64,000 nucleotides of DNA, taken from Planctomycetaceae bacterium (lineage in GTDB: Bacteria > Planctomycetota > Planctomycetia > Pirellulales > UBA1268). The DNA lies in NCBI GenBank assembly GCA_021300535.1, contig JAJTED010000014.1, positions 15,234 to 79,233 on the forward strand, in the 5' to 3' direction. Both the position numbers and the translations under genes were made by a program. Positions 24,063 through 50,117 of this stretch are shown here, in pieces (the first letter of the stretch is position 1; each line of letters begins with the position of its first letter). The notes under the pieces are model-generated. The model did not search any database. It was not told the origin of the DNA and was given only the letters and a program-made list of their open reading frames with translations.

Positions 24063-24633
24063 ATGCCCATTCTCCCCAAACAACAAGACATCTATCCGGA
24101 TGACCTCCTGGACGTGGTCGAGGGCGCAGCAGGGAGGGAGCCGCCCGTTGCAGGCGGGCGATGGGTCGCCTTCTACACTCTCTCGCGGCGTGAGAAGGAT
24201 CTCATGCGGAAGCTGCAAGCCGCCGGCGTGCCCTTCTACGGCCCGATGGTCCGCCGCCGCCTCCACTCCGCGGGCGGCCGCGTGCGGTCGTCCTACGTCC
24301 CGCTTTTCCCCGGCTACGTATTCTCGCACGTTGACGACGAGCAGCGGCGTGCGGCCCTGGCAACCAACACGGTCGCCCGCTGGATTCCGATCGTCGACGA
24401 GCGAATGCTTGTCGACGACCTGCGGGCGATCAAGCGGCTCATCGACACCGAGAAGCCGCTCACCCCGGAGGCTCGAACCCGGCCAGTTGGTCCGCGTCCG
24501 AACGGGCGCCCTCCGCGGGCTCGAGGGCACGGTGGTCAAGCGGCGCGGGGCGGAGCGGCTCGTGGTCGCCGTGCGGTTTCTGAACCAGGGGGCGTCGATC
24601 GAGCTCGAAGACGTGGATTTGGAGCGGCTTTGA
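24063..24633 (+). pseudogene. UpxY/RfaH-like NusG paralog, NGN and KOW domains in different frames
   Basis: NGN domain (WVAFYTLSRREK...PLFPGYVF) is in frame 0 to about 24470. KOW domain (LEPGQLVRVRTGALRGLEGTVV...) is in the +1 frame and ends at 24633. Confidence 0.65.
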
Positions 24634-24655
24634 CTTTGTCGCGCAGGAAGCACTC

Positions 24656-26517
24656 ATGAATATCTCCGCACCACGCATGCCGTTTCGCCGCATCAACCGC
24701 CGGGCGGTCACGCTGCTCTTCGTGCACGCCGCGATCTTCGCGATCACCTATTTCCTCGCGTTCTTCATCCGCAACGACTTCAAGTTCGACGACTGGCTCC
24801 AGACCTACGCGGCGACGGTCGGCGGCGTGATCGCCATGAAACTGGCCGTCTTTTATTTCCTGGGCCATTGCCACGCCTCGTGGGCGCGGGTCGCGTTCGG
24901 GGACCTCACGAACCTGCTGTGGGGCGCCACGCTCTCGATGCTCGTGCTGACGACGATCGACAGTCTCTTCATCTCCACGGGCTTCTTCCGCGTGCCGCGG
25001 GTGCAGCGGAGCGTGGTCCTGCTCGACTGGGCCGGCACGGTCCTGCTGATCGGCGGCATGCGGACGATTTATCGCAGCCTGCGCGAGGAACTGCGGCCGC
25101 TGTTCTCCCGCCGGCCCGCCCGTTTGGCGATCATCGTGGGGGCGAATCGGGCCGGCGAACTGATTGCCCGCAACCTGATGGCCGCCTCCAAAAACCCCTA
25201 CTTCATCCTCGGCTTCCTCGACGACGACCCGCACCTCAAGCACACCCGCGTGGCGGGCATCGAGGTCCTCGGCGGCGTCGATCAGGCCAGTTACGAGGTC
25301 AACCGGCGACAGGTTGACGACGTGATCGTGCAGTCGGGCACACTCACCGGGAAACGGTTCCGCCGCCTTCTCGACGAATGTGCCGCCGCCGGGGCCACGG
25401 TAAAGGTGCTGCCGGCCATCGACGAGCTGCTCGACGGCCAGACCGATCCGTCGCACGTGTTGCTGCGGTCGGTCGAAATCAAGGACCTCCTGCGCCGCGA
25501 ACCGGTGAAACTCGACGACTCCGCGATCCGCGTGCTGATCGAGGGCCGCACCGTGATGGTGACGGGGGCCGGCGGCTCGATCGGCTCCGAGATCTGCCGC
25601 CAGGTGCTGCGGTTCTCGCCGCGGCGGCTGCTGCTGGTGGAACGCGGGGAGAACGCCCTGTTTCTCGTGGAGCAGGAGTTCTCCCGGCTCGATCCGAAGC
25701 CCGCCTTCGAGCCGCTCATCGCCGACATCACCGACGCCCACCGCATGGAGCAGATCTTCGCCACCTACCAGCCGGAGGTGGTGTTTCACGCGGCCGCCCA
25801 CAAGCACGTGCCGATGATGGAATGGAACCCGGCCGAGGCGATCAAGAACAACGTCCTCACAAGGCGGTGAATCCGACGAGCGTCATGGGCTGCTCGAAGC
25901 TGCTGGCCGAGCGGTTCGTGCAGGCGATATCACAGGAGTCGAAGACGAAGTTCATCGTGGTGCGGTTCGGCAACGTCCTGGCCAGCAACGGCAGCGTGGT
26001 GCCCACGTTCCAGGAGCAGATTCGCCGCGGCGGGCCGATCACGGTCACGCACCCGGGCATCGAGCGGTTCTTCATGACCATCCCCGAGGCCTCGCAGCTC
26101 GTGCTCCAGGCGGCCACGCTCGGCTCCGGAGGCGAGATCTTCGTGCTCGACATGGGCGAGAGCGTGAAGATCGTCGATCTGGCCCGCGACCTGATCGCCC
26201 TTTCCGGCCTCGAGCCCGACGACATCGAGATCGTGTTCACCGGCCTGCGGCCCGGCGAGAAGCTCTACGAGGAGCTCTACTTCGAAGGCGAGCGGCGTGT
26301 GTCCACGAAGCATCCGAAGGTGTTCTGCGCCATGCACCGCCCCGCCGAAATGCCGGCCGTCGAGGCGCTGCTCGAGGACCTGTCGGAAGTGATCGACGAG
26401 TCGCCGCAGGCGGTTCGCGCCCATCTTCGCGACGTCGTGCCGGAATACACGGGCGAGGTGGGCGACCAGCTCGCCGCGCCGCAGGCCGAGGAAATGCGCA
26501 AGGCCCGTGCCAAGTAG
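24656..26517 (+). pseudogene. PglF/WbpM/CapD-like membrane UDP-sugar 4,6-dehydratase with internal deletion and frameshift
   Basis: N-terminal TM region, two Rossmann folds and VMVTGAGGSIGSE. HAAAHKHVPMMEWNPAEAIKNNVL joins directly to KAVNPTSVMG. About 23 aa including the S-T-D of the catalytic STDK are missing. A stop lies at 25868-25870. Confidence 0.7.
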
Positions 26518-27793
26518 CCGTCTGCAGATGATCCCGGAAGTGCACGTCGCGGGCGATCCGGCGGCGCAGGGCATCCGCGTGCCGTTCGTGCGGCCGGCGC
26601 TGCCGCCCGTGGAGGCCGTTCGGCCCGCGATCGACGAGATCGTGCGCACCGGCCGGCTCACGAAGGGGCCCTACGTCGAGCGATTCGAGAAGGCGGTCGC
26701 GGAGCGGCTCGGCGTGCGGCATGCCGTGGCGGTGAGCAGCTGCACCGTGGGCCTGATGCTCGTGTATCGGGGGCTCGATCTGGCCGCCGGCAGCTGCCGC
26801 AGCCGCCGCGGGATCGCCGAAGCCTGCCCGGTGGCCGCGATGGAGCCGCTCTCGCGGTTCGGCGTGGCCCGGTCGGGAAGCCGCTCGGAGCCGCTGGGGG
26901 AGGTGATCATCCCCAGCTTCACGTTCCTGGCGGCCCCGGCGGCGATCGCCTGGAACAACCTCCGCCCCGTGTTCATCGAGGTCGATCCGCGCACGACCAA
27001 CGTCTCCCCGCAGGCGGTGAAGGCGGCGATCTCGCCCCGCACCGTCGCGATCGCCGCCTGCCACAACTTCGGCAACCCCTGCGATATCCCGGCGCTGGAG
27101 GCGATCGCCGTCGAGCATGGTCTGCCGCTGGTCATCGACGCGGCCCACGGGTTCGGCGCCAGCGTGCATGGCCGGCCGGTGGGAGCCGGCGGCACGGCGC
27201 AGGTGTTCAGCCTCTCGCCCACAAAGTTGCTCGTGGCCGGCGAGGGAGGCATCGTGGCCACCGATTGCGACTGCCTGGCCCACTTCGTGCGGCTGGGCCG
27301 CGAATATGGCAACGACGGCTCCTACGACGCGCTCTTCCCGGGCGTCAACGGCCGGATGCCGGAGATGAGCGCCGCGCTGGCGTTGGCGTCGCTCGAAATC
27401 CTCGACCAGGTATCGGCCCGCCGCAACGAGCTCGCCGGGCTGTATCGCGAGGAACTCTCCCAGCTTCCCGGCATCGGGTTCGTGGAAATCGCCGCGGGCG
27501 CCCGCTCGAGCCACAAAGACTTCTCGATCACGATTGATCCCACGCGGTTTGGCATGTCGCGCGACGCGCTGCGGCGTGCCCTGGCCGCGCGGGGCATCGA
27601 AACGCGGGCCTATTACGATCCTCCCTGCCATCGCCAGACGGCGTTCGAGCATTTCCATGACCGGATGCGGCCGCTCCCGCAGACCGAGATGCTCGCCTCC
27701 CGCAGCCTCGCCCTGCCGATGGGCGGCCACGTGAACGAGGCCGTCGTCGCCGATGTGTGCGAGACGATCGCCAACGCAAAGCACCTCGATTGA
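26507..27793 (+). CDS. DegT/DnrJ/EryC1/StrS (PglE-like) sugar aminotransferase
   Basis: Motifs EVIIPSFTF, DAAHGFGA and FSLSPTKLL (PLP-Lys). Carries a roughly 38-codon insertion before EVIIPSFTF. Confidence 0.85.
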   Translation: MPSSRLQMIPEVHVAGDPAAQGIRVPFVRPALPPVEAVRPAIDEIVRTGRLTKGPYVERFEKAVAERLGVRHAVAVSSCTVGLMLVYRGLDLAAGSCRSRRGIAEACPVAAMEPLSRFGVARSGSRSEPLGEVIIPSFTFLAAPAAIAWNNLRPVFIEVDPRTTNVSPQAVKAAISPRTVAIAACHNFGNPCDIPALEAIAVEHGLPLVIDAAHGFGASVHGRPVGAGGTAQVFSLSPTKLLVAGEGGIVATDCDCLAHFVRLGREYGNDGSYDALFPGVNGRMPEMSAALALASLEILDQVSARRNELAGLYREELSQLPGIGFVEIAAGARSSHKDFSITIDPTRFGMSRDALRRALAARGIETRAYYDPPCHRQTAFEHFHDRMRPLPQTEMLASRSLALPMGGHVNEAVVADVCETIANAKHLD

Positions 27794-28851
27794 CCGACTC
27801 GGTCCTGTTCTGGGCGGCATGGTTCGCAGCCGCGGTCGTCGGGGCAGCCGCCATGACGTCGCGGCTGGTCGCATGGGCCGGGGCGCTCGGCGTGGTCGAC
27901 CGCCCCAACGCCCGCTCGAGCCACACAAACGTCACGCCCCGTGGCGGCGGGCTGGCGATCGTAGCCGTGACGGTGCTGGCCGCCGCGGTCGCGGCCGTGC
28001 TCTATCCCTCCGCGGCCGTGCGGCTCGCCGCGACCGTGATTCCGGCCGTGGTGATCGCCGCCGTGAGCTGGATCGATGATGTCCGCACGCTGAAAAACCG
28101 CGTCCGCTTCTCGGTGCACCTGGCGGCGGCAGCCGCCGCCGTCTTCGTTCTCGGCCCCGTACATTCCGTCGATCTCGGATCCTTTGGGAGCATCGACCTC
28201 GGGGCCGCCGCCTGGCCGCTCACGATGCTATGGATCGTCGGCCTGACCAACGCCTTCAACTTCATGGACGGGATCGACGGGATCGCCGGGATCACGGCGG
28301 CCGCAGCGGGTGCCGGGCTGGCCGCCGCGGCCTGGCTGCTCGGCGGCCCGGCCATCGCCGCGGTCGCCTTGGCCTTCACGGGAGCGGCGCTGGGGTTTCT
28401 GTCGCAGAACTGGCCGCCGGCCCGGATCTTCATGGGCGACGTGGGCAGCGCGTTCTGCGGGTTTCTGATCGCGGTGCTGCCGTTGGCCATACCCGCGGCC
28501 GACGTGCCGCGAATCGTGCCGGTCGCCGTGCTGGCGATGTGGCCCTTCATCTTCGACACGCTGTTCACGCTCGTGCGTCGGCTGCGGCGCGGTGAAAACA
28601 TTTTCCAGGCCCACCGCAGCCACCTCTATCAGCGGCTGGTGATCGCCGGCTGGTCGCACCGGGCCACGTCGAGCCTCTACGGCGCGTTGGCCGCGATGGC
28701 GGCGGCGATCGCGATCACGCCGCTCTTGAACCCGGCGCTCCGGGTGACGGCCGATCGCGCCGCCGCGGCGCTGGTCGGCGGCTGCAGCCTGTTCCTCGTC
28801 GGCCTGGCGATCTTCGCCGAGCGATGGCGTCCTTCTACGCCCGCTTCCTGA
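27790..28851 (+). CDS. WecA/WbpL-like polyprenyl-phosphate HexNAc-1-P transferase (MraY/GT4 family)
   Basis: Multi-TM protein with NAFNFMDGIDG and FMGDVGS motifs. The likely TTG start at 27790 overlaps the upstream stop; the track start is 27757. Confidence 0.8.
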   Translation: MTDSVLFWAAWFAAAVVGAAAMTSRLVAWAGALGVVDRPNARSSHTNVTPRGGGLAIVAVTVLAAAVAAVLYPSAAVRLAATVIPAVVIAAVSWIDDVRTLKNRVRFSVHLAAAAAAVFVLGPVHSVDLGSFGSIDLGAAAWPLTMLWIVGLTNAFNFMDGIDGIAGITAAAAGAGLAAAAWLLGGPAIAAVALAFTGAALGFLSQNWPPARIFMGDVGSAFCGFLIAVLPLAIPAADVPRIVPVAVLAMWPFIFDTLFTLVRRLRRGENIFQAHRSHLYQRLVIAGWSHRATSSLYGALAAMAAAIAITPLLNPALRVTADRAAAALVGGCSLFLVGLAIFAERWRPSTPAS

Positions 28852-29456
28852 AGCGGGGCTGCGATCTGGTGGCGGCTGTGGTGCTCACCGTCGTGCTGCT
28901 GCCGGCGATGGCGGTCGTCGCCGTGGCCGTGTGGCTCGCGCTCGGGCTGCCGATCCTCCATCGCGACGAACGGGCCGGGCTCGCCGGCCGTACCATCCGG
29001 ATCGCGAAGTTTCGCTCCATGACCAACGCCACCGGCCCCGACGGCCGGCTCCTGCCCGACTCCGCCCGCCTCGGTCCCTTCGGCAGGTTCCTGCGGCGGA
29101 CGAGCCTCGATGAATTGCCGCAGCTTTTCAGTGTGCTCTGCGGCGACATGAGCCTTGTCGGCCCCCGGCCGCTGCCGCTTCGCTACGTGCCGCGGTATTC
29201 TTCTCGCCAGGCCATCCGGCTGGAGGTCCGGCCAGGGCTCACCGGCTGGGCCCAGATTCACGGCCGCAACGCCGTGGATTGGCCGGAACGGCTGGAACTC
29301 GACGCCCGCTACGTGGAAATGCTGGCCCGGCCCACGGCCCCGCTGACCGATCTCTGGATCGTGGGCGTGACGGCGTTTCAAATACTCCTCCAGGCGGTGA
29401 CCGGCCGCGGGATCACCGCGCCGGGAGCCGCCACGATGCACGAGTTCGCCCCATGA
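28824..29456 (+). CDS. PglC/WbaP-C-type monotopic phosphoglycosyl (sugar) transferase
   Basis: 210 aa with KRGCDLV, RTSLDELPQL, DMSLVGPRP and RPGLTGWAQ motifs. Confidence 0.85.
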   Translation: MASFYARFLKRGCDLVAAVVLTVVLLPAMAVVAVAVWLALGLPILHRDERAGLAGRTIRIAKFRSMTNATGPDGRLLPDSARLGPFGRFLRRTSLDELPQLFSVLCGDMSLVGPRPLPLRYVPRYSSRQAIRLEVRPGLTGWAQIHGRNAVDWPERLELDARYVEMLARPTAPLTDLWIVGVTAFQILLQAVTGRGITAPGAATMHEFAP

Positions 29457-29767
29457 CTTCCCCGCAGCCGTCCGTGGCCGACGCCATCGCATCCGCGATC
29501 CGCACCGTGCTTCATGACACGGGCCGCGACGCCAAGGCCGTTGAGCCTACGATGCTCCTGGCCGCCGACCTCGGGCTCGACTCCCTCGACCTCGCCCAAA
29601 CGATCGTGCTCCTGGAGCGGTCGCTGGGCATCGACCCATTCCGCCAAGCTCCTGCCGCCGGCGGCCGGCCCGCCATCCGCACCGTCGCCGACCTGATCAC
29701 CATCTACACCTCCGCCCTCCCCTCTCCTTCTCCCCCTCCCTCTCCCTCTGGGAGAGGGCCGGGGTGA
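29453..29767 (+). CDS. acyl carrier protein
   Basis: 104 aa with phosphopantetheine site DLGLDSLD. ATGA overlap with the upstream stop. The C-terminal tail and stop codon lie inside a family-3 element. Confidence 0.75.
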   Translation: MTSPQPSVADAIASAIRTVLHDTGRDAKAVEPTMLLAADLGLDSLDLAQTIVLLERSLGIDPFRQAPAAGGRPAIRTVADLITIYTSALPSPSPPPSPSGRGPG

Positions 29768-29776
29768 GGGTGCCCC
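29736..29776 (+). repeat. family-3 palindromic element at the 3' end of the ACP gene
   Basis: Identical 41-mer CTCCCTCTCCCTCTGGGAGAGGGCCGGGGTGAGGGTGCCCC. Read here in its only stop-containing frame (TGA at 29765-29767). Confidence 0.75.
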
Positions 29777-29789
29777 CCACCACCAACCC

Positions 29790-31154
29790 ATGACCTCAAC
29801 CCCCACCATTCCCGACGCTTCCGTCGAAGACCGTCTCGCCTTCGCGATCACCGAGATCGCCCGCCAATCGCCCGACCGCGCGGCGATCGTCGCCGCCGCC
29901 GGCTCCCCGAGCCGCCGCGGGATCGACTATGCCGCGCTGGCCGCGGCCGTGGAAAAACTCGAGGCCGCGCTCGACGCCCACCGCCCCGTGGGCGTGGTCG
30001 CCCGCGCCATCCGCGTGGAATCGCTCGTGGCGATCGCCGCGGCCTGCGGCCGCCAGCACGTGCCCGTGGCGTTTCTCGCCGAAGACTCCCGCGACCTGGT
30101 CGGCGAACTCCGCGACTGGGTCACGCTCGACGATTCGCTCGTGCTTCCCGAATCAGCCAGCCGCGGCCCGCGGCGCGAGTTTACCGCGATTCCGGCCCAA
30201 GTTGTCGTGGCCACCTCCGGCACGAGCGGCCCGCCGAAGATCGTGCAGCACTCCTGGGATTCGGTGCTCGCCGCGGCCCGCCTCGCCGAGCAGTGGCACG
30301 GCCTGGCCTGGCTGCTGGTCTACGACGCAACCCGGTGGGCCGGCATCCAGGTGTGGATGCAGGCGCTGCTGACTGGCGGCACGCTCGTCGTGCCCGCGTC
30401 GCGCGATCCCGACGTCGTCGCCGCGGCGCTGGTCGCCGAGAAGGTGGCCGTCCTGCCGGCCACGCCCACCCTCCTGCGGCGGCTGCTGACATCGGCCGAC
30501 CGCAGCCATCTCGCCCAGGCGGCTCCGGCCCGGATCACGCTCGGTGGCGAAGCGGCCGATGGCCAGCTGCTGGCCGACGCGAAGGCGCTGTTTCCGCAGG
30601 CCAAGATCACGCAGGTCTACGCGACCACGGAGCTGGGCGAGGTGTTTCGGGTGGCCGACGGCCGGCCGGGCTTTCCCGCGGCCTGGCTGGGCAAGTCGCT
30701 GCCCGGTGGGGTGCGGCTCACGACCCGCCGCGACGGCGAGCTGCTCGTGCAACTCTCGCGCGACACAGCGGACGTGGGCACCGGCGACCTGGTCGAGCGG
30801 CGTGGCGACCGCTTCGAGTTCACGGGCCGCCGCAGCGACGTGATCGTGGTGGGGGGCGCGAAGGTGTTTCCGAAGCGGGTGGAGGAGATCCTGCGGCGGG
30901 TGCCGGGTGTGGCCGAGGCCCGCGTCTACGGTCTCCCCAGCGCCATCACCGGCGAACTGGTGGCCGCGGAGATCGTGCTCGCCGACCCGCTTCCTGAAGC
31001 GACCGCGCCCGACCAGGTCCGCACGGCCGCCCTGGCGATCTGCCGCGAATCGCTCGAGCCGCAGAGCGTGCCCCGCGTGCTCGACATCGTGAAGCAGATC
31101 GCCACCACCGCCGCCGGCAAAACCCCCCGCCGCCCCGCCCCCGTCCATCCGTGA
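29790..31154 (+). CDS. acyl-AMP/acyl-CoA ligase (ANL adenylating enzyme)
   Basis: 454 aa with motifs ATSGTSGPPKIV, YATTELGEV, GDLV and GRRSDVIVVGGAKVFP. Confidence 0.8.
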   Translation: MTSTPTIPDASVEDRLAFAITEIARQSPDRAAIVAAAGSPSRRGIDYAALAAAVEKLEAALDAHRPVGVVARAIRVESLVAIAAACGRQHVPVAFLAEDSRDLVGELRDWVTLDDSLVLPESASRGPRREFTAIPAQVVVATSGTSGPPKIVQHSWDSVLAAARLAEQWHGLAWLLVYDATRWAGIQVWMQALLTGGTLVVPASRDPDVVAAALVAEKVAVLPATPTLLRRLLTSADRSHLAQAAPARITLGGEAADGQLLADAKALFPQAKITQVYATTELGEVFRVADGRPGFPAAWLGKSLPGGVRLTTRRDGELLVQLSRDTADVGTGDLVERRGDRFEFTGRRSDVIVVGGAKVFPKRVEEILRRVPGVAEARVYGLPSAITGELVAAEIVLADPLPEATAPDQVRTAALAICRESLEPQSVPRVLDIVKQIATTAAGKTPRRPAPVHP

Positions 31155-31168
31155 CCGGTAATGTCTCG

Positions 31169-31197
31169 CCCCTGTAGCGGCGGTCTCTGACCGTCGT
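31169..31197 (+). repeat. hairpin element CCCCTGTAGCGGCGGTCTCTGACCGTCGT, left copy
   Basis: Perfect 29 bp direct repeat with 31659-31687. The core is an imperfect 8 bp palindrome (CGGCGGTC tct GACCGTCG, one mismatch). Confidence 0.8.
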
Positions 31198-31344
31198 GCC
31201 TCTCCCTTTAGCGTCACCTCGCCGTGCCTCATGCCCGATTGCCGGGAAGCCCGAAGCGCGAGCTGAGGGAATACGCGTCAATCCGCCGACCGCCGTTCCG
31301 GTCGCGTCTCGATTCTTCGCCACTCCACCGCGTAAAATCCGTCA

Positions 31345-31593
31345 ATGCTGACCGAATATCTCCACGCCGCCGCCGCTCACGCCCGCTACGAAATCCTCCC
31401 GGAGGACCTTGATTTCTACGGTGAGATTCCGCCCTGTCCTGGCGTGCATGCGACCGGCTCGACCTTGGAAGCGTGTCGCAACGAACTGCTGTCGGCTCTG
31501 GAAGACTGGATTCTCTTTCGGATTCATCGCCACCTGCCATTGCCAGTGATCGATGGCGTCGATCTGACGGTCAAGGCGGAAGCGTCGTCCTGA
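31345..31593 (+). CDS. hicB: HicB-family antitoxin
   Basis: 82 aa with YEILPEDLDFYGEIPPCPGVHATGSTLEACRNELLSALEDWI, the UPF0150/HicB pattern. Confidence 0.68.
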   Translation: MLTEYLHAAAAHARYEILPEDLDFYGEIPPCPGVHATGSTLEACRNELLSALEDWILFRIHRHLPLPVIDGVDLTVKAEASS

Positions 31594-31680
31594 ATGCCTG
31601 TCTTCGGCCCAGTGTCACGCCGGGTCGTAATCTCCCTCGTCTCTGACCGTCGTTCCTCCCCCTGTAGCGGCGGTCTCTGA
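31594..31680 (+). pseudogene. possible truncated hicA remnant
   Basis: MPVFGPVSRRVVISL resembles a HicA N-terminus (MP..P.VS.revi.aL). It then runs into hairpin-element copies and a stop. Confidence 0.3.
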
Positions 31681-31687
31681 CCGTCGT
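31659..31687 (+). repeat. hairpin element CCCCTGTAGCGGCGGTCTCTGACCGTCGT, right copy
   Basis: Identical to 31169-31197. An additional partial copy lies at 31638-31653. Confidence 0.8.
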
Positions 31688-31690
31688 TCT

Positions 31691-32491
31691 GTGCGTTCCG
31701 TGATCTCGCTCATCTCCGGCGGCTCGCGTGGCCTCGGCCTGGCGATCGTCGAGCGGCTGCTCGCCCGCGGCGATCGCGTGGCCACGTTCTCCCGCTCGGG
31801 CTCGCCGGCCCTCGCCGCACTCGCCGCGGCGCACCCCGATCGGCTGCACGCCGAATCTCTCGACGGCAGCGACTCGGCCGCGGTGATCGGCTTCGTGGGC
31901 CGGGTCGTGGAGCGGTTCGGCGGCCTCGATCACTGCATCGCGAATGCGGCGATCGCCCACGAGGGCGTGCTGGCGACGATGCGTGACGACGAGATCGACT
32001 CGCTGCTCACGGTGAACGTAAAAGCCTCGATCGTGCTCGTCCGCGAGTGCCTCCGCCAGATGCTCGCCCGCTCCCCGGCCCCCAGAAGCGAGCCGAAACA
32101 CTCCCCTCTCCCTCTGGGAGAGGGTGGCCGAAGGCCGGGTGAGGGTGCCCCGCCCGCCTCCATCACCGTCATCTCCTCGATCGTCGCCTCCCGCGGCTCC
32201 CCCGGCCTCGCCGTCTACGCCGCCACGAAAGCCGCGCTCGAAGGCTTCGCCCGCAGCCTCGCCCGCGAGGTGGGCCTGCGCGGTATCCGCGTCAACGCGA
32301 TTGCCCCCGGCTTTCTGGAAACCGACCTTTCGGCAACGCTCTCCGCCGACAACCGAGCCCGCCTCGCCCGCCGCACGGCCCTGGGCCGGCTCGGCACCAC
32401 CGCCGACGTCGTCGGCGCCCTCGAGTTCTTAACCAGTCCCCGCGCTGCCTTCATCACCGGCCAAGTGCTCACGATCGACGGCGGCAACTGA
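31691..32491 (+). CDS. SDR-family oxidoreductase (FabG-like ketoreductase)
   Basis: GTG start. Motifs ISGGSRGLG, NAAI, YAATKAAL and NAIAPGF. A roughly 28-codon insertion carries a family-3 element. Confidence 0.85.
   Translation: MRSVISLISGGSRGLGLAIVERLLARGDRVATFSRSGSPALAALAAAHPDRLHAESLDGSDSAAVIGFVGRVVERFGGLDHCIANAAIAHEGVLATMRDDEIDSLLTVNVKASIVLVRECLRQMLARSPAPRSEPKHSPLPLGEGGRRPGEGAPPASITVISSIVASRGSPGLAVYAATKAALEGFARSLAREVGLRGIRVNAIAPGFLETDLSATLSADNRARLARRTALGRLGTTADVVGALEFLTSPRAAFITGQVLTIDGGN
32101..32151 (+). repeat. family-3 palindromic element inside the SDR CDS
   Basis: CTCCCCTCTCCCTCTGGGAGAGGGtggccgaagGCCGGGTGAGGGTGCCCC, translated as SPLPLGEGGRRPGEGAP. Confidence 0.72.
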
Positions 32492-32506
32492 TCTGGATTG
32501 CAGTGC

Positions 32507-32821
32507 TCAGTAAACCTCGTCGTGCGTGCCCACGGTCAGGAGCACGATTGTTTCTGCATAAAGCCCGGCAATCTCTTTGGGTTCCCCCACCTCAAACACG
32601 ATTCTCAGGCTGTAATTCACGCTGCATGACCAGCACCCGGTGAGATCGCCTCTCAATCGATGCGATCGCAACGCGGGGTCAAACATGTCGGATCGAAGAA
32701 CAGCTACCGTCTGTAAATTTTGATCGGCCAGTGCCGCGTCTCGCTTGGCCGCTCGTTTTGCAGCCCGCCGAAAACCGCTCGTAACATAAATGTGACGAAC
32801 CGTGCCGCCCCCAGCCATCAT
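32507..32821 (-). CDS. RelE/YafQ-family type II toxin
   Basis: 104 aa with HRLRGDLTGCWSCSVNYSLRIVFEV...VLLTVGTHDEVY. ATGA overlap with the upstream small gene. Confidence 0.68.
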   Translation of the reverse strand: MMAGGGTVRHIYVTSGFRRAAKRAAKRDAALADQNLQTVAVLRSDMFDPALRSHRLRGDLTGCWSCSVNYSLRIVFEVGEPKEIAGLYAETIVLLTVGTHDEVY

Positions 32822-33033
32822 TTCCGCAAATCCCGTGCGAGATCATCGATATCGAGCAGAGTTGCCCTTCCTTGAGCCATCTCGTTTCGTCCCTCCAGAA
32901 CGTCTGAAACGATCTGTCGTCGCCCTTGCTCCGCAAGTCGTCGCTGTATCAAGTTCATTAGTTCTTTCTGGTCGTCCGCGCACAGGCTATCCACAGCCTC
33001 AACGACTTCGTCGAATGCCATCTTGCGAATCAT
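32818..33033 (-). CDS. putative cognate antitoxin
   Basis: 71 aa acidic/helical ORF, translationally coupled to the toxin. The family is not recognised. Confidence 0.5.
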   Translation of the reverse strand: MIRKMAFDEVVEAVDSLCADDQKELMNLIQRRLAEQGRRQIVSDVLEGRNEMAQGRATLLDIDDLARDLRK

Positions 33034-33131
33034 GTTCGCCTCCAGTCTCGGCTATGGTGTTCCAAACAGGCTACTTGCACCAACACCCAACAGTGTACAT
33101 CAGTCTATGCGCCTCGGCAACGCGATCACGT

Positions 33132-33365
33132 TCATCCCGTCGCCCGCAGCACGGATTGCTGCACCGTGTCAGGCACATCGATGGAGATAAACCAAGCTGA
33201 TGGATAGAGATAGTCCTCGCCCGTCTCATCGATGATGCGCAGGTCGCCATCGGCAGCGGCATCTGCATCTTCGATCACGGCGTAAATCTTGTTGCGGTGG
33301 AGCGACGTCTCGTATCCCTCGTTCGCTACGCACACAGCGAATTTGTTTCCGGGCAACGCGTTCAT
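33132..33365 (-). CDS. conserved small protein of unknown function (second gene of a two-gene cassette)
   Basis: 77 aa from ATG 33365: FAVCVANEGYETSLHRNKIYAVIEDADAAADGDLRIIDETGEDYLYP. Confidence 0.5.
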   Translation of the reverse strand: MNALPGNKFAVCVANEGYETSLHRNKIYAVIEDADAAADGDLRIIDETGEDYLYPSAWFISIDVPDTVQQSVLRATG

Positions 33366-33601
33366 CGCAAATACCTCTTGCGCTTCATTTCGACACGGCC
33401 GATGCCATGCGCTTCGTACCAGTGCAATTCCGCCAATCGCAGCCTGCCGCTCGGCAAACGTACGAGAGCGACACCTTTCATCTTCCGCCACCGTCCTGGC
33501 CCGTGCAACTTGATCAAGTGCACTCGGCAGCGGATCCTCGCCCCTCCAGCAATGACCGCAACGTCTTGAATGGAACCGACAACCGCAAAGGAATCAGGCA
33601 T
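33362..33601 (-). CDS. conserved small protein of unknown function (first gene of the cassette)
   Basis: 79 aa from ATG 33601: GPGRWRKMKGVALVRLPSGRLRLAELHWYEAHGIGRVEMK. ATGA overlap with the downstream gene. Confidence 0.5.
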   Translation of the reverse strand: MPDSFAVVGSIQDVAVIAGGARIRCRVHLIKLHGPGRWRKMKGVALVRLPSGRLRLAELHWYEAHGIGRVEMKRKRYLR

Positions 33602-33726
33602 GGAGCGCCACTCCGGAGAGGCAGCAGTATACGGGCGTACACTTTTTCGTAAACCCGGCTGCTTGACAACAAACCAATCCGGAAACAAATCCATTCTAGT
33701 CGCACTAAAATGGAGCAGGCTCCCGA

Positions 33727-34914
33727 ATGGCAGAGGCGTGGACACGACTCTTGTCGCTCGAGTTGCCGCGCAGTCAGTCCGCCTTCCTCTGGGGAGCCCG
33801 CAAGACCGGCAAATCGACGCTGCTGCGGACGGCCTTTCCGCAGAGCATCACGTACGACTTTTTGAAGACCGATCTTGCCCTGTCGTTTGGGGCCAGGCCG
33901 GCCCTGCTGCGGGAGCAGCTTCTGGCCCGGTCAGCGGCCGAGCTGGATAGCCCGATCATCCTCGACGAGGTGCAGAAGGTACCCGGCGTTCTCGACGAGG
34001 TGCACTGGCTGATCGAGAACCGGGGGCTGCGGTTCATCCTCTGCGGGTCGAGCGCCCGCAAGCTGAAACGCGGGCGAGCCAACCTGCTCGGGGGCCGCGC
34101 ATGGCGGTTCGAGATGTTTCCGTTGGTAACGGCCGAGTTTCCCGCAGCCGACCGGCCGCACGGCCGTTTCGACCTCCTGCGGGCGTTGAACCACGGCTTG
34201 CTGCCCTCCCATTACCTCTCTTCGCACCCGCGGCGGTCCTTGGAGGCCTATGTCCGCGACTACCTCAAGGAAGAGGTCTTCGACGCAGGGCTCACGCGGA
34301 ACGTGCCGGCATTCTCGCGATTCTTCGAGGCGGTCGGCTATTCGCACGGCGAACTCGTGAACTACGCGAACATCGCCCGCGACTGCGGGGTGGACGCCAA
34401 GACAGTCAAGGAATACTTCCAGATCCTCTGCGACACACTCCTCGGCCGGCTCGTGCCGCCGTACAAAAAACGACAAGAGCGGCAGGTCATCAGCAAGGCG
34501 CCCAAGTTCTATCTCTTCGACGTGGGCGTCGCCGGCGGGCTCACGAAACGGCATCTCGCGGAGCCACGCGGGGAGCAGTTTGGCCGGGCGCTCGAGCACC
34601 TCGTGTTCATGGAGCTCGCCGCCCATGCCTCGTATCGGGAACTGGGTTACGACATCTGCTTTTGGAGGACCAAGGCCGGGGCCGAGGTAGATTTCGTGCT
34701 GGGGCGAGGGGAGGTCGCGATCGAGGTGAAGGGCACATCCCGCGTCGATGATCGGGATCTGCGGTCGCTCGCGCTCTTCCGTGAGACCCATCGCCCCCGG
34801 CTTGCAGTCGTGGTCTGCAACGAGCCCGAGGAGCGCGTCGTCGCCGGGGTTCGCATCCTGCCCTGGCGGCTCTTTTTCCAGGAACTCTGGAACGGCCGCA
34901 TCATGGGCAGCTGA
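33727..34914 (+). CDS. AAA-family ATPase with DUF4143-like C-terminal domain
   Basis: 395 aa with Walker A GARKTGKST and Walker B PIILDEVQ. The architecture matches AAA_14 + DUF4143. Confidence 0.8.
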   Translation: MAEAWTRLLSLELPRSQSAFLWGARKTGKSTLLRTAFPQSITYDFLKTDLALSFGARPALLREQLLARSAAELDSPIILDEVQKVPGVLDEVHWLIENRGLRFILCGSSARKLKRGRANLLGGRAWRFEMFPLVTAEFPAADRPHGRFDLLRALNHGLLPSHYLSSHPRRSLEAYVRDYLKEEVFDAGLTRNVPAFSRFFEAVGYSHGELVNYANIARDCGVDAKTVKEYFQILCDTLLGRLVPPYKKRQERQVISKAPKFYLFDVGVAGGLTKRHLAEPRGEQFGRALEHLVFMELAAHASYRELGYDICFWRTKAGAEVDFVLGRGEVAIEVKGTSRVDDRDLRSLALFRETHRPRLAVVVCNEPEERVVAGVRILPWRLFFQELWNGRIMGS

Positions 34915-34955
34915 CCAACCTGTCGCCCGCCGCACGGATTGCTGGACCGCCCCCC

Positions 34956-34982
34956 GTGGCGCACACCTCCAGCCGTGCGAAT
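34956..34982 (+). repeat. solitary degenerate family-2 REP arm
   Basis: GTGGCGCACACCTCCAGCCGTGCGAAT; two mismatches to the 18304 arm break its internal palindrome. Confidence 0.5.
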
Positions 34983-35102
34983 CCGCGCCGATGCCGTCAT
35001 AACGCCTAACCCCCGCGAAAACCGCACCGCCGCCCCCCATGCCGCTCGAAAAATCCTTACCGCCCCGCGAAGAACTTCCGCAAACTTGCGGTAACATGAG
35101 AA

Positions 35103-35960
35103 TTGTCCGATGGGGTCTGCGGCCACCCAAAAAACGACAAAATCGCCTGCCGCCCTGCCACCGAAGGGAACGGAGTGCAGGACTCGCACCCCCCTCGTTT
35201 GAACTACCCCCGCCATCATTCGCTCCGCCAGTCGGGAGCGGTCGCCTGCAAGCCCGGTGATGATGTCGCCACGGCGACGAATCGCCGCACGCCCCCCGCT
35301 GATTGCCAGCGGATCCTGATCGTTGGGGCCGGAGGATTCGGCCGTGAAGTGCTGCAGTGGGCCCGCGACACGTGGCCCGATCATGCAGGGCGAATCGCCG
35401 GGTTTCTGTCATCCGATGCCCGCGTCCTCGATGGATTCGACGGCTGCCCCGAGATCATCGGCCATCCCGACGCATACCACCCCGCGCCGGGTGACTACCT
35501 CCTGCTCGCCATCGGCGTGCCCTACGCCCGCCGGCAGGTCGCGGAATCGCTCCTGGCCCGAGGGGCCGAGTTCCTCACGCTCGTGCATCCGACAGCCATC
35601 GTCGCCGCGTCGGCCCGCATCGGCGCAGGCGCGATCCTTTGCCCCTATTCGATCGCCAGCGACGCCTGCCGCGTGGGCCGGTTCGTGATCCTGAACTACC
35701 ACACGTCCCTCGGCCACGACGCCTCGGCGGGGGATTTCGCGGTGCTGTCGCCCTACGCCACGCTCGGCGGCAACGCGCACATCCATGAAGACGTGTTCCT
35801 CGGGCTCCATGCCTCCGTCGGACCGGGCAAGACCGTTGGTGCCCGCAGCAAGGTGAGCGCGAACTCATGCTCCCTGGCTAACGCCCCAGCCGATTCGATC
35901 ATCTTTGGCGTGCCGGGCCGGATCGCGCGCCGCGTGGGCGGCGATTGGTTGCAATCATGA
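35103..35960 (+). CDS. PglD/NeuD-family sugar N/O-acetyltransferase (left-handed beta-helix)
   Basis: The core starts around 35310 (RILIVGAGGFGREV), followed by hexapeptide repeats. The true start is unclear because there is no ATG/GTG/TTG close to the core. Confidence 0.7.
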   Translation: MSDGVCGHPKNDKIACRPATEGNGVQDSHPPRLNYPRHHSLRQSGAVACKPGDDVATATNRRTPPADCQRILIVGAGGFGREVLQWARDTWPDHAGRIAGFLSSDARVLDGFDGCPEIIGHPDAYHPAPGDYLLLAIGVPYARRQVAESLLARGAEFLTLVHPTAIVAASARIGAGAILCPYSIASDACRVGRFVILNYHTSLGHDASAGDFAVLSPYATLGGNAHIHEDVFLGLHASVGPGKTVGARSKVSANSCSLANAPADSIIFGVPGRIARRVGGDWLQS

Positions 35961-37354: not shown

Positions 37355-38239
37355 ATGCCGAATCCACTCGTCAGCGCGTGTCTTTTAACTTATAAGCGGG
37401 CTTCCGTTGTGCCGCGAACCATCGCCGACCTTCTACAGCAGACTTTTCACGACTTCGAGTTGATTATCAACGACGACAACTCGCCGGACGACACTGAGGC
37501 GGTTTGTCGGGAGTTCGAGCATCGGGATCCGCGGGTCCGCTATTTCCGCAACGATCGCAATCTTCGCTACGCGGGCAATCAGAACGTCGCTGTTGAACGG
37601 TCCCGCGGGAAGTACGTGGCGTTCATTCACGACGGCGATCGTTACTCGCCGCAATTGCTTGAGCGATGGGTAGCGGCGATGGAGGCCTGCCCGGATGCCG
37701 CCTTGGTCTTCAATGCCGTCAATGTGCTCGACCGCGATGGGAACGTGGCCCGAAGCTACGACCATGGCTATGCCCCCTGCACGCCAGGCCGCGACTTTTA
37801 CGACCACATGCTTACAACTATCCATTCGCCGATCTTCGGGATCGTGATGGTGCGTCGCGATGCGATTGTGGCCGCCGGCCCCTTTGACTTGTCGTTTCCC
37901 ATTCTCGCGGACGTCGACATGTGGTTTCGCCTACTCCTTCGTGGCGACGTGGCCTACGTTCCGGAGCGGCTATACTCAATCTACCCGCGCGAGGCAGACC
38001 ACCCCAACGCACGAGTAAACTGGCGGATTCGTGCCGAGTTGGCCCGAATCTATCGAATGGCGTGCGACCGAAGGCATGGCCGAGGCAGTCCTGCCTGGCG
38101 ACAAGTGCGACGGCAGGTGGATCGGGCGTTGCTAAAGGCCGACGCCCGCGACCTCGCGGTCGCCCTGGCGAAGTTCCGCTGGGGCACGGCTGCCGCGGGC
38201 GTGCTCGCTGTCCTTCGTCGTCACCTGGTGGCCCGTTGA
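37355..38239 (+). CDS. glycosyltransferase family 2
   Basis: 294 aa with SACLLTYKR, IINDDNSPDDT and HDGD motifs. Confidence 0.85.
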   Translation: MPNPLVSACLLTYKRASVVPRTIADLLQQTFHDFELIINDDNSPDDTEAVCREFEHRDPRVRYFRNDRNLRYAGNQNVAVERSRGKYVAFIHDGDRYSPQLLERWVAAMEACPDAALVFNAVNVLDRDGNVARSYDHGYAPCTPGRDFYDHMLTTIHSPIFGIVMVRRDAIVAAGPFDLSFPILADVDMWFRLLLRGDVAYVPERLYSIYPREADHPNARVNWRIRAELARIYRMACDRRHGRGSPAWRQVRRQVDRALLKADARDLAVALAKFRWGTAAAGVLAVLRRHLVAR

Positions 38240-38322
38240 GTTCACCGCCAGCAGCTGGGAACGGCCCCGCCGAGGAGCGATTCGCGGCGCCCGCCGACCC
38301 ACAAACGCCCGTCATCGGCACC

Positions 38323-49471: not shown

Positions 49472-50117
49472 TTGATTTTCGCCAATAGCCAAAAAAGCGT
49501 GTTCCATACTACTGCCCACTGTTTTATCGCGGCGGCCGTTCCCTTCAGACAAAGCGTGACCTGTTCGCAAGGCGTCAAATTGGCATCAGGGTTTTTCGGC
49601 TTACGCCAGAGAGATGGAGTTTTTTCGCGTTCTACTGTTGCGGCTGTTCGGCGCTAGGGTAAAGTTGTTGGCGACCATCTCTCGAGCGTGTCGAATCTAC
49701 GCGCCATACGCGATTGTTCTTGGCGAGATGAGTTGTCTAGCGGCAGGCGTCGACTGCCATTGTGTCGATGGCATTGTCCTTGAAGACGACGTGACTGTGA
49801 GTCCGGATGCCTTCCTATGCACGGCGTCGCATGACATCGACTGAGCCGACAGGGCCTTGGTGACCGTGCCGATTCGCATCGTCCGAGGCGCGTGGATTTT
49901 CGCACGGGCCACGGCTCTGCAGGTCGTCACTGTGGGAGAAGGAGCCGTCGTGGCGGCATGCGCCGGGGTGACGCAGGACGTCCCGGCTTACGCCGTCGTG
50001 TCTGGCAACCCAGCGCGAGTAGTTGGTGACCGGGCTTATTGCTTATTGCGGCCCCAGCGACGAGAAAGGCGTGAGCCGCGATGGGTGATCTCGGGCAGCC
50101 GCGCCTCGCGGCGGTGA
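49472..50117 (+). pseudogene. WcaF-like hexapeptide acetyltransferase with two frameshifts and an in-frame TGA
   Basis: Homology runs frame 2 -> frame 1 at the A6 run (49491-49496), then frame 1 -> frame 0 at the T6 run (about 49620-49625). There is a TGA at 49842-49844 inside [18 protein letters not shown]. Confidence 0.65.

What the first reader, a model, noticed from the sequence alone, without database searches (positions are those of the whole stretch)
29453..32491. ACP + acyl-AMP ligase + ketoreductase embedded in the sugar-priming block
A stand-alone ACP (DSLD site), an ANL-family adenylating enzyme and a FabG-like SDR follow the two priming transferases directly. The ACP start overlaps the PglC-like stop (ATGA). 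This suggests that an acyl or hydroxyacyl group is loaded on ACP and transferred to the 4-amino sugar or to the lipid-linked intermediate. That would give an N-acylated rather than N-acetylated residue. No acyltransferase other than the PglD-like enzyme is visible.
Basis: inference. Interest (0 to 1): 0.55.

Follow-up and report, generated by a model that had tools for sequence, protein, structure and literature searches.

The report
Carrier-protein acyl cassette for amino sugar
An uncultured freshwater planctomycete carries, inside a bacillosamine-type sugar operon, a three-gene cassette (carrier protein, loading enzyme, reductase) related to the mupirocin "priming cassette"; it probably puts a short hydroxy-acyl group rather than acetate on the sugar's 4-amino group, but no such sugar-linked cassette has been tested biochemically.

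Summary
An ACP (29453-29767), a 454-aa ANL ligase (29790-31154) and a classical SDR (31691-32491) follow the PglC-like gene. The ATGA overlap is real.

In more than 20 loci of related Pirellulales the order pglF-pglE-wecA-pglC-acp-lig-sdr-pglD is kept, and the SDR is often followed directly by the PglD-like gene.

The chemistry needs refining. The SDR's best solved relative is MupS (181 bits; best FabG 133). The ACP's best is MacpD. All three proteins match the ligase-SDR-ACP set of the thiomarinol plasmid. The trio is therefore a Mup-type priming cassette. In mupirocin that cassette turns malonyl-CoA into 3-hydroxypropionyl-ACP. Here its product most likely goes to the PglD-like transferase.

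Ligase-then-MupS-like-SDR cassettes occur in at least seven phyla, mostly next to glycan genes. The Aeromonas flagellin-island cassette is a distinct family.

In this assembly the PglF-like gene has a 67-nt frameshifting deletion, so the pathway may be dead here.

This scan found the same cassette before in other planctomycete genomes.

Verdict: new variant of a known kind; interest is moderate.

The parts
24063..24659 (+). NusG/UpxY-like antiterminator at the head of the operon
   Evidence: Pfam NusG 2.3e-8; NCBIfam UpxY 6.6e-10. Conserved at this position in relatives.
24656..26517 (+). PglF-like UDP-HexNAc 4,6-dehydratase, broken by a 67-nt deletion near 25870 (two frames: 24656-25870 and about 25870-26517)
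   Evidence: Polysacc_synt_2 profile positions 1-107 and 130-291 lie in different frames. The deletion shows against L024 and L039. It is the only copy in the assembly.
26507..27793 (+). DegT/PglE-like sugar aminotransferase
   Evidence: Pfam DegT_DnrJ_EryC1 9e-92.
27757..28851 (+). WecA-like polytopic phosphoglycosyl transferase
   Evidence: Pfam Glycos_transf_4 4.7e-36.
28824..29456 (+). PglC-like monotopic phosphoglycosyl transferase
   Evidence: Pfam Bac_transf 2.6e-49.
29453..29767 (+). Dedicated acyl carrier protein (MacpD-like). The last ~15 residues and the stop codon come from a repeat element.
   Evidence: PP-binding 24 bits. Best PDB hit is MacpD 6tg5 at 7.7e-8. DSLD is conserved in orthologues, which end about 15 residues earlier. 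The repeat copy is at 29742.
29790..31154 (+). Short ANL adenylating ligase (MupQ/TmlQ relative)
   Evidence: Pfam. 31% identity, E 7e-41, to the pTML1 ligase. AF2 and Foldseek give an ANL fold. Single copy in the genome.
31345..31593 (+). hicB-like antitoxin gene inserted between ligase and SDR, flanked by 28-nt direct repeats at 31170-31197 and 31660-31687; not part of the pathway
   Evidence: Pfam UPF0150 2.7e-26. Repeats. hicB lies at the same place in L028, L039 and L046.
31691..32491 (+). MupS-like classical SDR, with a repeat-derived insertion of about 20 residues (about residues 129-152) in a surface loop
   Evidence: Best PDB hit is MupS 4yxf at 181 bits; best FabG 133 bits. 41% identical to the pTML1 SDR. 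The insertion is absent from L014, L015 and L019 and has pLDDT below 50 in the model.
35103..35960 (+). PglD/NeuD-like left-handed beta-helix N-acyltransferase, the presumed acceptor-side enzyme; start codon uncertain, conserved part begins near residue 69
   Evidence: Pfam PglD_N and Hexapep. PDB relatives are WeeI, VioB, PglB-ATD, PerB and PglD. It directly follows the SDR in many relatives. Start analysis.

Best explanation
The ACP, the short ANL ligase and the MupS-like SDR form a Mup-type 'priming cassette' recruited into a bacillosamine-type amino-sugar operon.

Proposed steps, by analogy with MupQ/MupS/MacpD:
1. The ligase adenylates the free carboxylate of a small dicarboxylyl-CoA, such as malonyl- or succinyl-CoA.
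2. It loads that acid on the phosphopantetheine arm of the dedicated ACP.
3. The SDR reduces the CoA-thioester end to a primary alcohol with NADPH. This leaves an omega-hydroxyacyl-ACP: 3-hydroxypropanoyl or 4-hydroxybutanoyl.
4. The PglD/NeuD-like transferase uses this acyl-ACP instead of acetyl-CoA to acylate the 4-amino group made by the PglF-like and PglE-like enzymes.
5. The PglC-like transferase starts the glycan with the N-hydroxyacylated sugar.

Shown here: the genes, their motifs, their conserved order, and their specific homology to the Mup/Tml cassette. Taken from the literature: the Mup chemistry. Inferred: the acid used, the acyl-ACP specificity of the PglD-like enzyme, and the 4-N acceptor.

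In this assembly the PglF-like gene is frameshifted, so the pathway may be inactive in this genome. It is intact in close relatives.
For: Gene identity and motifs.

Synteny within the group. The order pglF-pglE-wecA-pglC-acp-lig-sdr(-pglD) holds in L013-L015, L019, L020 and L024-L048. The PglD-like gene comes straight after the SDR in L014, L025, L030, L035, L036, L040, L042 and L047. The ligase was found in 14 of 24 sampled genus genomes. PglC was not found in 4 of 5 good-quality genomes that gave no ligase match, so the block comes and goes as a unit.

Specific homology to the priming cassette.
- SDR: best PDB hit is MupS, 180.7 bits, E 3e-52; the best FabG scores 133.5 bits.
- ACP: best PDB hit is MacpD, E 7.7e-8; the next ACP is at 1.3e-4.
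- Thiomarinol plasmid pTML1 carries ileS, ligase, SDR, ACP and a PKS gene in a row. Its ligase is 31% identical (7e-41), its SDR 41% (1e-59) and its ACP 31% (2e-7) to the window proteins.
- The ligase is much closer to this set than to any solved ANL, where the best match is 1.5e-16 and covers the C-terminal domain only.

Chemistry of the characterised relative. MupQ is an adenylation enzyme. [quoted passage not shown] With MacpD they make 3-hydroxypropionyl-ACP from malonyl-CoA (PMC10098928).

Family-wide link to acyltransferases and glycans. All 38 analysed loci with the order ligase-then-SDR have a MupS/TmlS-like SDR. PglD-like or other beta-helix transferases lie beside the cassette in L054, L056, L059, L063, L064, L069, L074, L075 and L080, among others. 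Polysaccharide deacetylase, GT2, RmlD-like and Wzx genes lie beside it in Acidobacteriota and Actinomycetota. In Azospirillum brasilense Sp7 it lies beside pseI and flagellin.

Genetic precedent for an ACP-made acyl group on a 4-amino sugar with a VioB/PglD-type transferase: the P. syringae viosamine island (PMC3927599).
Against: No biochemical datum exists for any glycan-linked member.

- The window ligase is only about 31% identical to the pTML1 ligase. In the trees it falls in a deep clade separate from the TmlQ-like and dfn-like ligases. Its substrate could therefore differ from a dicarboxylyl-CoA.
- PglD-family enzymes characterised so far use acyl-CoA (general knowledge; the names of the PDB relatives are). 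Use of acyl-ACP here is inferred only from gene neighbourhood.
- Some family-1 cassettes sit in non-glycan contexts: an MMPL transporter in L060, a sigma-54 regulator in L056, and a PKS in B. velezensis.
- In this assembly PglF is frameshifted and is the only copy found.
- The SDR has a GTG start abutting a repeat and carries a 20-residue insertion.
- The PglD-like gene is separated by 2.6 kb of partly antisense accessory genes and has no obvious start codon.
Confidence: 0.55

Rival explanations
1. Classical reading. The ligase loads a free short acid such as acetoacetate on the ACP. The SDR acts as an ordinary beta-ketoacyl-ACP reductase and gives a 3-hydroxyacyl-ACP such as 3-hydroxybutanoyl. 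The PglD-like enzyme then puts it on the 4-amino sugar, as for the modified viosamine of P. syringae.
For: The SDR keeps the FabG-type N-S-Y-K tetrad and scores 178 bits on FabG models. In P. syringae, vioR (a ketoreductase), acp and vioB give N-(3-hydroxy-1-oxobutyl)viosamine, and a vioR deletion loses the sugar (PMC3927599). The window ligase lies in a different deep clade from the TmlQ-like ligase.
Against: The SDR is clearly nearer to MupS than to any FabG: 181 against 133 bits. The ACP is nearest to MacpD. No ketosynthase is present to make a beta-keto thioester. Free beta-keto acids are few and unstable (general knowledge).
Confidence: 0.2
2. The cassette does make an acyl-ACP for this glycan, but the acyl group goes elsewhere. 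Possible destinations are an O-acyl position, a de-N-acetylated 2-amino group, or the lipid-linked intermediate, through a transferase other than the PglD-like enzyme. The PglD-like enzyme would remain an ordinary acetyl-CoA-dependent acetyltransferase.
For: In Acidobacteriota and Actinomycetota loci the cassette sits with polysaccharide deacetylases and unassigned proteins of about 370-390 aa rather than PglD. The window holds large proteins without a Pfam match, at 37921-39852 and 40883-42340.
Against: No homologue of those unassigned proteins was found in the window. The PglD-like gene is the constant immediate neighbour of the SDR in this group, and of cassettes in several other lineages. 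Only one PglD-like gene was found in the assembly.
Confidence: 0.12
3. The three genes belong to an unrelated lipid or polyketide pathway that merely adjoins the sugar genes.
For: Characterised relatives (Mup, Tml) and the B. velezensis dfn-like locus feed polyketide or fatty-acid synthases. L060 has an MMPL transporter next to the cassette.
Against: No ketosynthase, acyltransferase-domain or PKS gene was seen near the cassette in the window or in the genus loci examined. The trio is nested between pglC and pglD, with an ATGA overlap to pglC. It co-varies in presence with pglC.
Confidence: 0.03
4. In this genome the module is a decaying relic and makes nothing, whatever it does in relatives.
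For: A 67-nt frameshifting deletion removes the catalytic S/T-D region of the only PglF-like gene. Repeat-element insertions lie in the ACP tail and an SDR loop. hicB, toxin-antitoxin and AAA-ATPase genes are inserted in the operon. A truncated hicA and a degenerate acetyltransferase lie nearby.
Against: The ACP, ligase, SDR and PglD-like reading frames are all open with catalytic residues intact. The SDR insertion lies in a loop that also varies in L013 and is modelled as disordered with the core intact. The deletion could be an assembly or population artefact of a metagenome-assembled genome at 86% completeness.
Confidence: 0.35

Closest known systems
MupQ / MupS / MacpD priming cassette of mupirocin (Pseudomonas fluorescens), and the TmlQ / TmlS / TacpD equivalent on thiomarinol plasmid pTML1
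   Same: Same three parts: a stand-alone ANL ligase of about 450 aa, a classical SDR directly after it, and a dedicated ACP. The window SDR's best solved relative is MupS and the ACP's is MacpD. All three window proteins align with the pTML1 set at 31-41% identity.
   Different: In mup and tml the hydroxyacyl-ACP primes a ketosynthase for chain extension (PMC10098928). Here there is no ketosynthase, and the neighbour is a PglD-like N-acyltransferase in a sugar operon. Gene order is ACP-ligase-SDR rather than ligase-SDR-ACP. The ligase lies in a separate deep clade. The substrate is unknown.
Pseudomonas syringae pv. tabaci viosamine island (vioA, vioB, vioS, vioR, acp)
   Same: A dedicated ACP and an SDR make a short hydroxyacyl group. 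A VioB/PglD-type transferase puts it on the 4-amino group of a 4-amino-4,6-dideoxyhexose. There is genetic and mass-spectrometric support (PMC3927599). VioB of Acinetobacter is among the best solved relatives of the window's PglD-like protein.
   Different: That system uses a KAS III condensing enzyme (VioS) instead of an adenylating ligase. Its sugar is dTDP-viosamine on flagellin, not a bacillosamine-type UDP-sugar started by a PglC-like transferase.
ACP / 3-oxoacyl-ACP reductase / AMP-dependent synthetase (with LuxE and LuxC) of Aeromonas and Enterobacteriaceae flagellin glycosylation islands; Vibrio cholerae O1 tetronate genes (wbeK-wbeO)
   Same: An ACP, an SDR and an ANL ligase sit together inside glycan loci (PMC7874193, PMC4875605, PMC3441752). 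The ligases are homologous at about 30% identity.
   Different: This is a separate cassette family. The order is ACP-SDR-ligase. Its SDR is an ordinary FabG-like enzyme and not MupS-like: 22 of 22 such loci, and MupS is not among the Aeromonas SDR's hits. It is often accompanied by LuxE and LuxC, which are absent here.
Start of the trans-AT PKS cluster of Bacillus velezensis (NusG paralogue, acyltransferase, ACP, 454-aa ligase, SDR, PKS), which fits the difficidin dfn genes
   Same: Same order, ACP-ligase-SDR, and the same ligase length. Its SDR is also MupS-like, at 218 bits against 179 for FabG.
   Different: It feeds a polyketide synthase. Assigning it to dfnX/dfnB/dfnC rests on my knowledge of the cluster plus PMC10434259 and PMC12691694, not on an annotated record.

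Membership tests
Mup-type priming cassette (MupQ/MupS/MacpD) | SDR is of the MupS type rather than an ordinary FabG | tested here: met
   Best PDB hit is MupS 4yxf at 180.7 bits, E 3e-52; best FabG 133.5 bits. 41% identity to the pTML1 SDR.
Mup-type priming cassette (MupQ/MupS/MacpD) | Dedicated stand-alone ACP of the MacpD type | tested here: met
   Best PDB hit is MacpD 6tg5, E 7.7e-8; next ACP 1.3e-4. 31% identity to the pTML1 ACP.
Mup-type priming cassette (MupQ/MupS/MacpD) | Stand-alone ANL ligase homologous to MupQ/TmlQ, placed directly before the SDR | tested here: inconclusive
   31% identity, E 7e-41, to the pTML1 ligase, and the same ligase-then-SDR order. However, it falls in a different deep clade from the TmlQ-like and dfn-like ligases. 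No MupQ sequence was available.
Mup-type priming cassette (MupQ/MupS/MacpD) | Substrate is a dicarboxylyl-CoA; a bis-thioester intermediate is reduced to an omega-hydroxyacyl-ACP | not testable with these tools
   Known only from the literature for Mup (PMC10098928).
Mup-type priming cassette (MupQ/MupS/MacpD) | Product is handed to a ketosynthase for chain extension | tested here: not met
   No ketosynthase or PKS was seen in the window or the genus loci. The neighbour is a PglD-like acyltransferase.
Campylobacter-type diNAcBac pathway (PglF, PglE, PglD, PglC) | All four enzyme families present in one locus | tested here: met
   Pfam and NCBIfam hits. In this assembly PglF is frameshifted.
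Campylobacter-type diNAcBac pathway (PglF, PglE, PglD, PglC) | PglD uses acetyl-CoA to give a 4-N-acetyl group | not testable with these tools
   The conserved insertion of the cassette between pglC and pglD argues for a different donor, but the donor was not tested.
Aeromonas-type flagellin-island cassette (ACP, FabG-like SDR, ligase) | Order ACP-SDR-ligase with an Aeromonas-type SDR | tested here: not met
   The window order is ACP-ligase-SDR. All 38 such loci have a MupS/TmlS-like SDR, and all 22 loci with SDR before ligase have the Aeromonas type.

The most novel reading that the evidence does not exclude
Mup-type priming cassettes may have a second, widespread and unstudied job. They would make omega-hydroxyacyl-ACP donors for NeuD/PglD-type and other beta-helix acyltransferases. 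Surface sugars in at least seven phyla would then carry 3-hydroxypropanoyl or 4-hydroxybutanoyl amides. PglD-family enzymes would include members that take acyl-ACP rather than acyl-CoA.
Probability: 0.45. Interest if true: 0.55.

Novelty: new variant of a known kind. Interest (0 to 1): 0.45.

Why it matters
Non-acetyl N-acyl groups on bacterial surface sugars shape antigenicity and phage recognition. How most of them are made is unknown.

This locus links a biochemically defined cassette, the mupirocin starter-unit machinery, to a sugar N-acylation step. That gives a concrete reaction to test: dicarboxylyl-CoA plus ATP and NADPH, on a dedicated ACP, then a PglD-type transferase.

The analysis also separates two look-alike cassette families in glycan loci that annotation lumps together as 'fatty-acid synthesis genes'. 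One has a MupS-type SDR after the ligase. The other has a FabG-type SDR before it.

For Planctomycetota, whose envelope glycans are almost unstudied, it predicts a hydroxyacylated bacillosamine-type sugar in a common freshwater Pirellulales lineage.

Azospirillum brasilense Sp7 carries a family-1 cassette beside pseI and flagellin. It offers a culturable organism for the test.

Tried and rejected
1. NCBIfam gave no specific family for the ligase or the ACP; every hit was far below its cut-off.
2. PDB sequence search with the ligase and Foldseek on its AF2 model gave only generic ANL matches (PchD, MatB, MenE, McbA, ACSM2A at 16-24% identity). No substrate call is possible.
3. My first working idea was acetoacetate loaded and reduced to 3-hydroxybutanoyl. 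I downgraded it after the MupS and MacpD hits.
4. I first took the Aeromonas/Enterobacteriaceae flagellin-island cassette as the closest relative. I rejected this because its SDR is not MupS-like and its gene order differs.
5. Full-text searches for a biochemical study of such a cassette in a glycan locus found none in the held library. Walker et al. 2020 (ACS Chem Biol 15:494) is not held, so its content is cited only through PMC10098928.
6. The careful maximum-likelihood tree did not finish. A quick IQ-TREE and a FastTree were used instead. Deep branching and the root are therefore uncertain.
Synteny came from the genome search, the fetch from genomes and the search for related loci.
8. I searched the window for homologues of the unassigned proteins next to cassettes in other phyla. 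None was found, apart from a degenerate hexapeptide acetyltransferase remnant.

Full report
**What is there**

The window comes from a metagenome-assembled genome of an uncultured freshwater Pirellulales bacterium. The assembly is 4.0 Mb in 197 contigs and 86% complete. The region has about 70% G+C.

On the + strand a long operon starts at a NusG/UpxY-like gene (24063-24659). It continues with:
- a PglF-like 4,6-dehydratase (24656-26517);
- a DegT/PglE-like aminotransferase (26507-27793);
- a WecA-like transferase (27757-28851);
- a PglC-like transferase (28824-29456);
- an ACP (29453-29767);
- an ANL ligase (29790-31154);
- a hicB-like gene (31345-31593);
- a classical SDR (31691-32491).

An islet follows: a YafQ-type toxin on the minus strand, small unknown genes, and an AAA/DUF4143 ATPase. 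Then comes a PglD/NeuD-like acyltransferase (35103-35960). After it lies a lower-GC block of epimerase and glycosyltransferase genes.

**The three genes are real**

- The ACP passes the Pfam PP-binding threshold. It keeps DLGLDSLDL in every orthologue.
- The ligase has all ANL core motifs. It folds as a complete two-domain ANL, with pLDDT 89 and pTM 0.88. It is short because loops are trimmed, notably around motif A6.
- The SDR keeps the N-S-Y-K tetrad and a GGSRGLG...FSR cofactor motif. By general knowledge of classical SDRs, that motif fits NADPH use.
- Orthologues of the ligase are numerous in freshwater metagenomes. There are 546 proteins at E <= 1e-10, and the top 120 are at least 73% identical.

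I fetched loci from genomes of the same genus and from public species representatives.

- More than 20 loci keep the order pglF-pglE-wecA-pglC-acp-lig-sdr.
- In L014, L025, L030, L035, L036, L040, L042 and L047 the PglD-like gene follows the SDR within about 100-270 nt.
- Elsewhere the SDR-pglD junction holds variable inserts such as toxin-antitoxin genes, as in the window.
- The ligase was found in 14 of 24 sampled genus genomes.
- In 4 of 5 good-quality genomes with no ligase match, PglC was not found either. In the fifth, pglC lies at a contig end.

The trio is therefore an integral part of the amino-sugar block, not a neighbour from a lipid pathway.

**What kind of cassette it is**

A lead from earlier notes of this scan pointed to the mupirocin priming cassette. 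I tested it.

- The SDR's best solved relative is MupS (4yxf) at 180.7 bits, E 3e-52. The best FabG scores 133.5 bits.
- The ACP's best solved relative is MacpD (6tg5) at E 7.7e-8. The next ACP is at 1.3e-4.
- The thiomarinol plasmid pTML1 carries ileS, a 445-aa ligase, an SDR, an ACP and a PKS gene in a row. By my knowledge these are TmlQ, TmlS and TacpD. They align with the window proteins at 31% (7e-41), 41% (1e-59) and 31% (2e-7).
- A Bacillus velezensis locus has a divergent NusG paralogue, a tandem acyltransferase, an ACP, a 454-aa ligase, an SDR, and then a PKS that opens with a ketosynthase domain. Its SDR is also MupS-like. This fits the start of the difficidin cluster (PMC10434259, PMC12691694, and my own knowledge).

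[quoted passage not shown] With MacpD they generate 3-hydroxypropionyl-ACP from malonyl-CoA. That paper cites Walker et al. 2020, which I could not read.

**Two cassette families**

Among 80 loci recovered with a ligase profile, 54 have a ligase less than 60% identical to the window's. Of these 54:
- 41 have both an ACP and an SDR beside the ligase;
- 7 have an ACP only;
- 6 have neither, and some of those are cut by contig ends.

Gene order sorts the loci cleanly.
- All 38 loci with ligase followed by SDR have a MupS/TmlS-like SDR. The window belongs here.
- All 22 loci with SDR before ligase have the SDR type of the Aeromonas flagellin glycosylation islands. That SDR's best solved relatives are ordinary FabGs, and MupS is not listed.

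The ligase trees show the same deep split, though TmlQ-like and dfn-like ligases fall nearer the second group. The published 'ACP, 3-oxoacyl-ACP reductase, AMP-dependent synthetase' sets of Aeromonas and Enterobacteriaceae flagellin islands (PMC7874193, PMC4875605) are therefore cousins, not the same cassette.

**Link to acyltransferases and glycans**

Family-1 cassettes occur in Planctomycetota, Acidobacteriota, Actinomycetota, Verrucomicrobiota, Myxococcota, Margulisiibacteriota, Bacteroidota, Bacillota and Pseudomonadota. Their neighbours include:
- PglD-like or beta-helix acyltransferases immediately beside the cassette (L054, L056, L059, L063, L064, L069, L074, L075, L080);
- DegT aminotransferases;
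- polysaccharide deacetylases, GT2, RmlD-like and Wzx genes;
- pseI and flagellin in Azospirillum brasilense Sp7 plasmid p3.

A family-2 example, L022, is a stand-alone ACP-SDR-ligase-PglD set.

A few contexts are not obviously glycan-related: an MMPL transporter, a sigma-54 regulator, and PKS genes.

The P. syringae viosamine island gives genetic proof that an ACP-made hydroxyacyl group can be put on a 4-amino sugar by a VioB/PglD-type enzyme (PMC3927599).

**Most likely mechanism**

1. The ligase adenylates the free carboxylate of malonyl- or succinyl-CoA and loads it on the ACP.
2. The MupS-like SDR reduces the CoA-thioester end to the alcohol.
3. The PglD-like enzyme transfers the 3-hydroxypropanoyl or 4-hydroxybutanoyl group to the 4-amino group of the UDP-sugar.
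4. The PglC-like enzyme starts the glycan.

Steps 1 and 2 rest on homology plus the literature. Step 3 rests on gene neighbourhood. The identity of the acid is open. I put 0.55 on this reading as a whole. I put about 0.8 on the weaker claim that the trio supplies a non-acetyl acyl donor to this glycan pathway.

**State of the locus in this genome**

- Compared with L024 and L039, the PglF-like gene lacks 67 nt. These include the codons for the conserved ...FV.ISTD segment, and the loss shifts the frame. No second copy was found.
- The ACP's last ~15 residues and stop codon, and a ~20-residue loop insertion in the SDR, come from copies of one repeat element, CTCCCTCTGGGAGAGGG. The SDR insertion is modelled as a disordered loop on an intact core.
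- hicB with a truncated hicA sits between ligase and SDR, flanked by exact 28-nt repeats. hicB lies at the same site in L028, L039 and L046.
- The PglD-like gene has no ATG, GTG or TTG near its conserved N-terminus.

The cassette genes themselves are intact. The pathway may still be inactive here, or the deletion may be an assembly artefact.

**Novelty**

The parts and the general idea are known: the Mup/Tml priming cassette, ACP-dependent N-acylation in P. syringae, and the proposed ACP-dependent tetronate route of V. cholerae O1. What is not described, in the literature I could search, is the Mup-type cassette wired to a PglD-type transferase in glycan operons, or its separation from the Aeromonas-type cassette.

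This scan had already reached the same reading on other planctomycete genomes. I rate it a new variant of a known kind, of moderate interest.

Noticed in passing
window 25860-25875: The PglF-like dehydratase lacks 67 nt relative to L024 and L039. The loss removes the conserved ...FV.ISTD segment and shifts the frame. It is the only PglF-like copy in the assembly.
   Followed up: yes
window 15912, 29742, 32108 (also 15828, 15870 with 2 mismatches): One repeat element (core CTCCCTCTGGGAGAGGG) is translated inside three genes: a TauE-domain protein, the ACP tail and an SDR loop. Among the 104 loci fetched at that point it was found only in this genome and in its nearest relative, G007.
   Followed up: partly
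window 31170-31687: hicB plus a stub of about 15 codons of hicA lie between exact 28-nt direct repeats. hicB sits at the same ligase-SDR junction in L028, L039 and L046, but the repeats were not found there.
   Followed up: partly
window 32492-35100; L013, L015, L034, L041, L046: The junction between the SDR and the PglD-like gene is a recurrent insertion site in this genus. It takes toxin-antitoxin genes, small unknown genes and an AAA/DUF4143 ATPase. Other relatives have the two genes adjacent.
   Followed up: partly
window 35103-35310: The PglD-like gene has no ATG, GTG or TTG close to its conserved RILIVGAGGFG start. Several orthologues share this. A short GNGV-coding stretch upstream is conserved in L025, L028 and L035.
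   Followed up: partly
window 49620-50030: A degenerate hexapeptide (WcaF-like) acetyltransferase remnant with an in-frame stop lies in the glycosyltransferase block.
   Followed up: partly
L043:3950-16830: A Pirellulales genome (M30B53) shows a tandem duplication of about 6.7 kb. The unit holds ACP-ligase-SDR, a Gfo/Idh/MocA oxidoreductase and an unknown 489-aa protein. No pglC or pglD was detected nearby.
   Followed up: no
L016 (G002) and L017 (G018): Two genomes of the genus keep an intact ligase next to WecA-like genes. No ACP, SDR, PglC or PglE was detectable beside it. This may be a remnant arrangement.
   Followed up: partly
L106 (Azospirillum brasilense Sp7 plasmid p3, NZ_CP033315, 342222-345553): ACP, ligase, a MupS/TmlS-like SDR (45% identity to the pTML1 SDR) and a KAS III gene lie between pseI/glycosyltransferase genes and a flagellin gene. 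This is a culturable organism carrying a family-1 cassette in a flagellin glycosylation locus.
   Followed up: partly
L052, L053 (Acidobacteriota, Actinomycetota): A conserved protein of about 370-390 aa with no Pfam match (43% identical between the two phyla) and a polysaccharide deacetylase accompany the cassette. Together they could be a deacetylate-then-reacylate pair.
   Followed up: no
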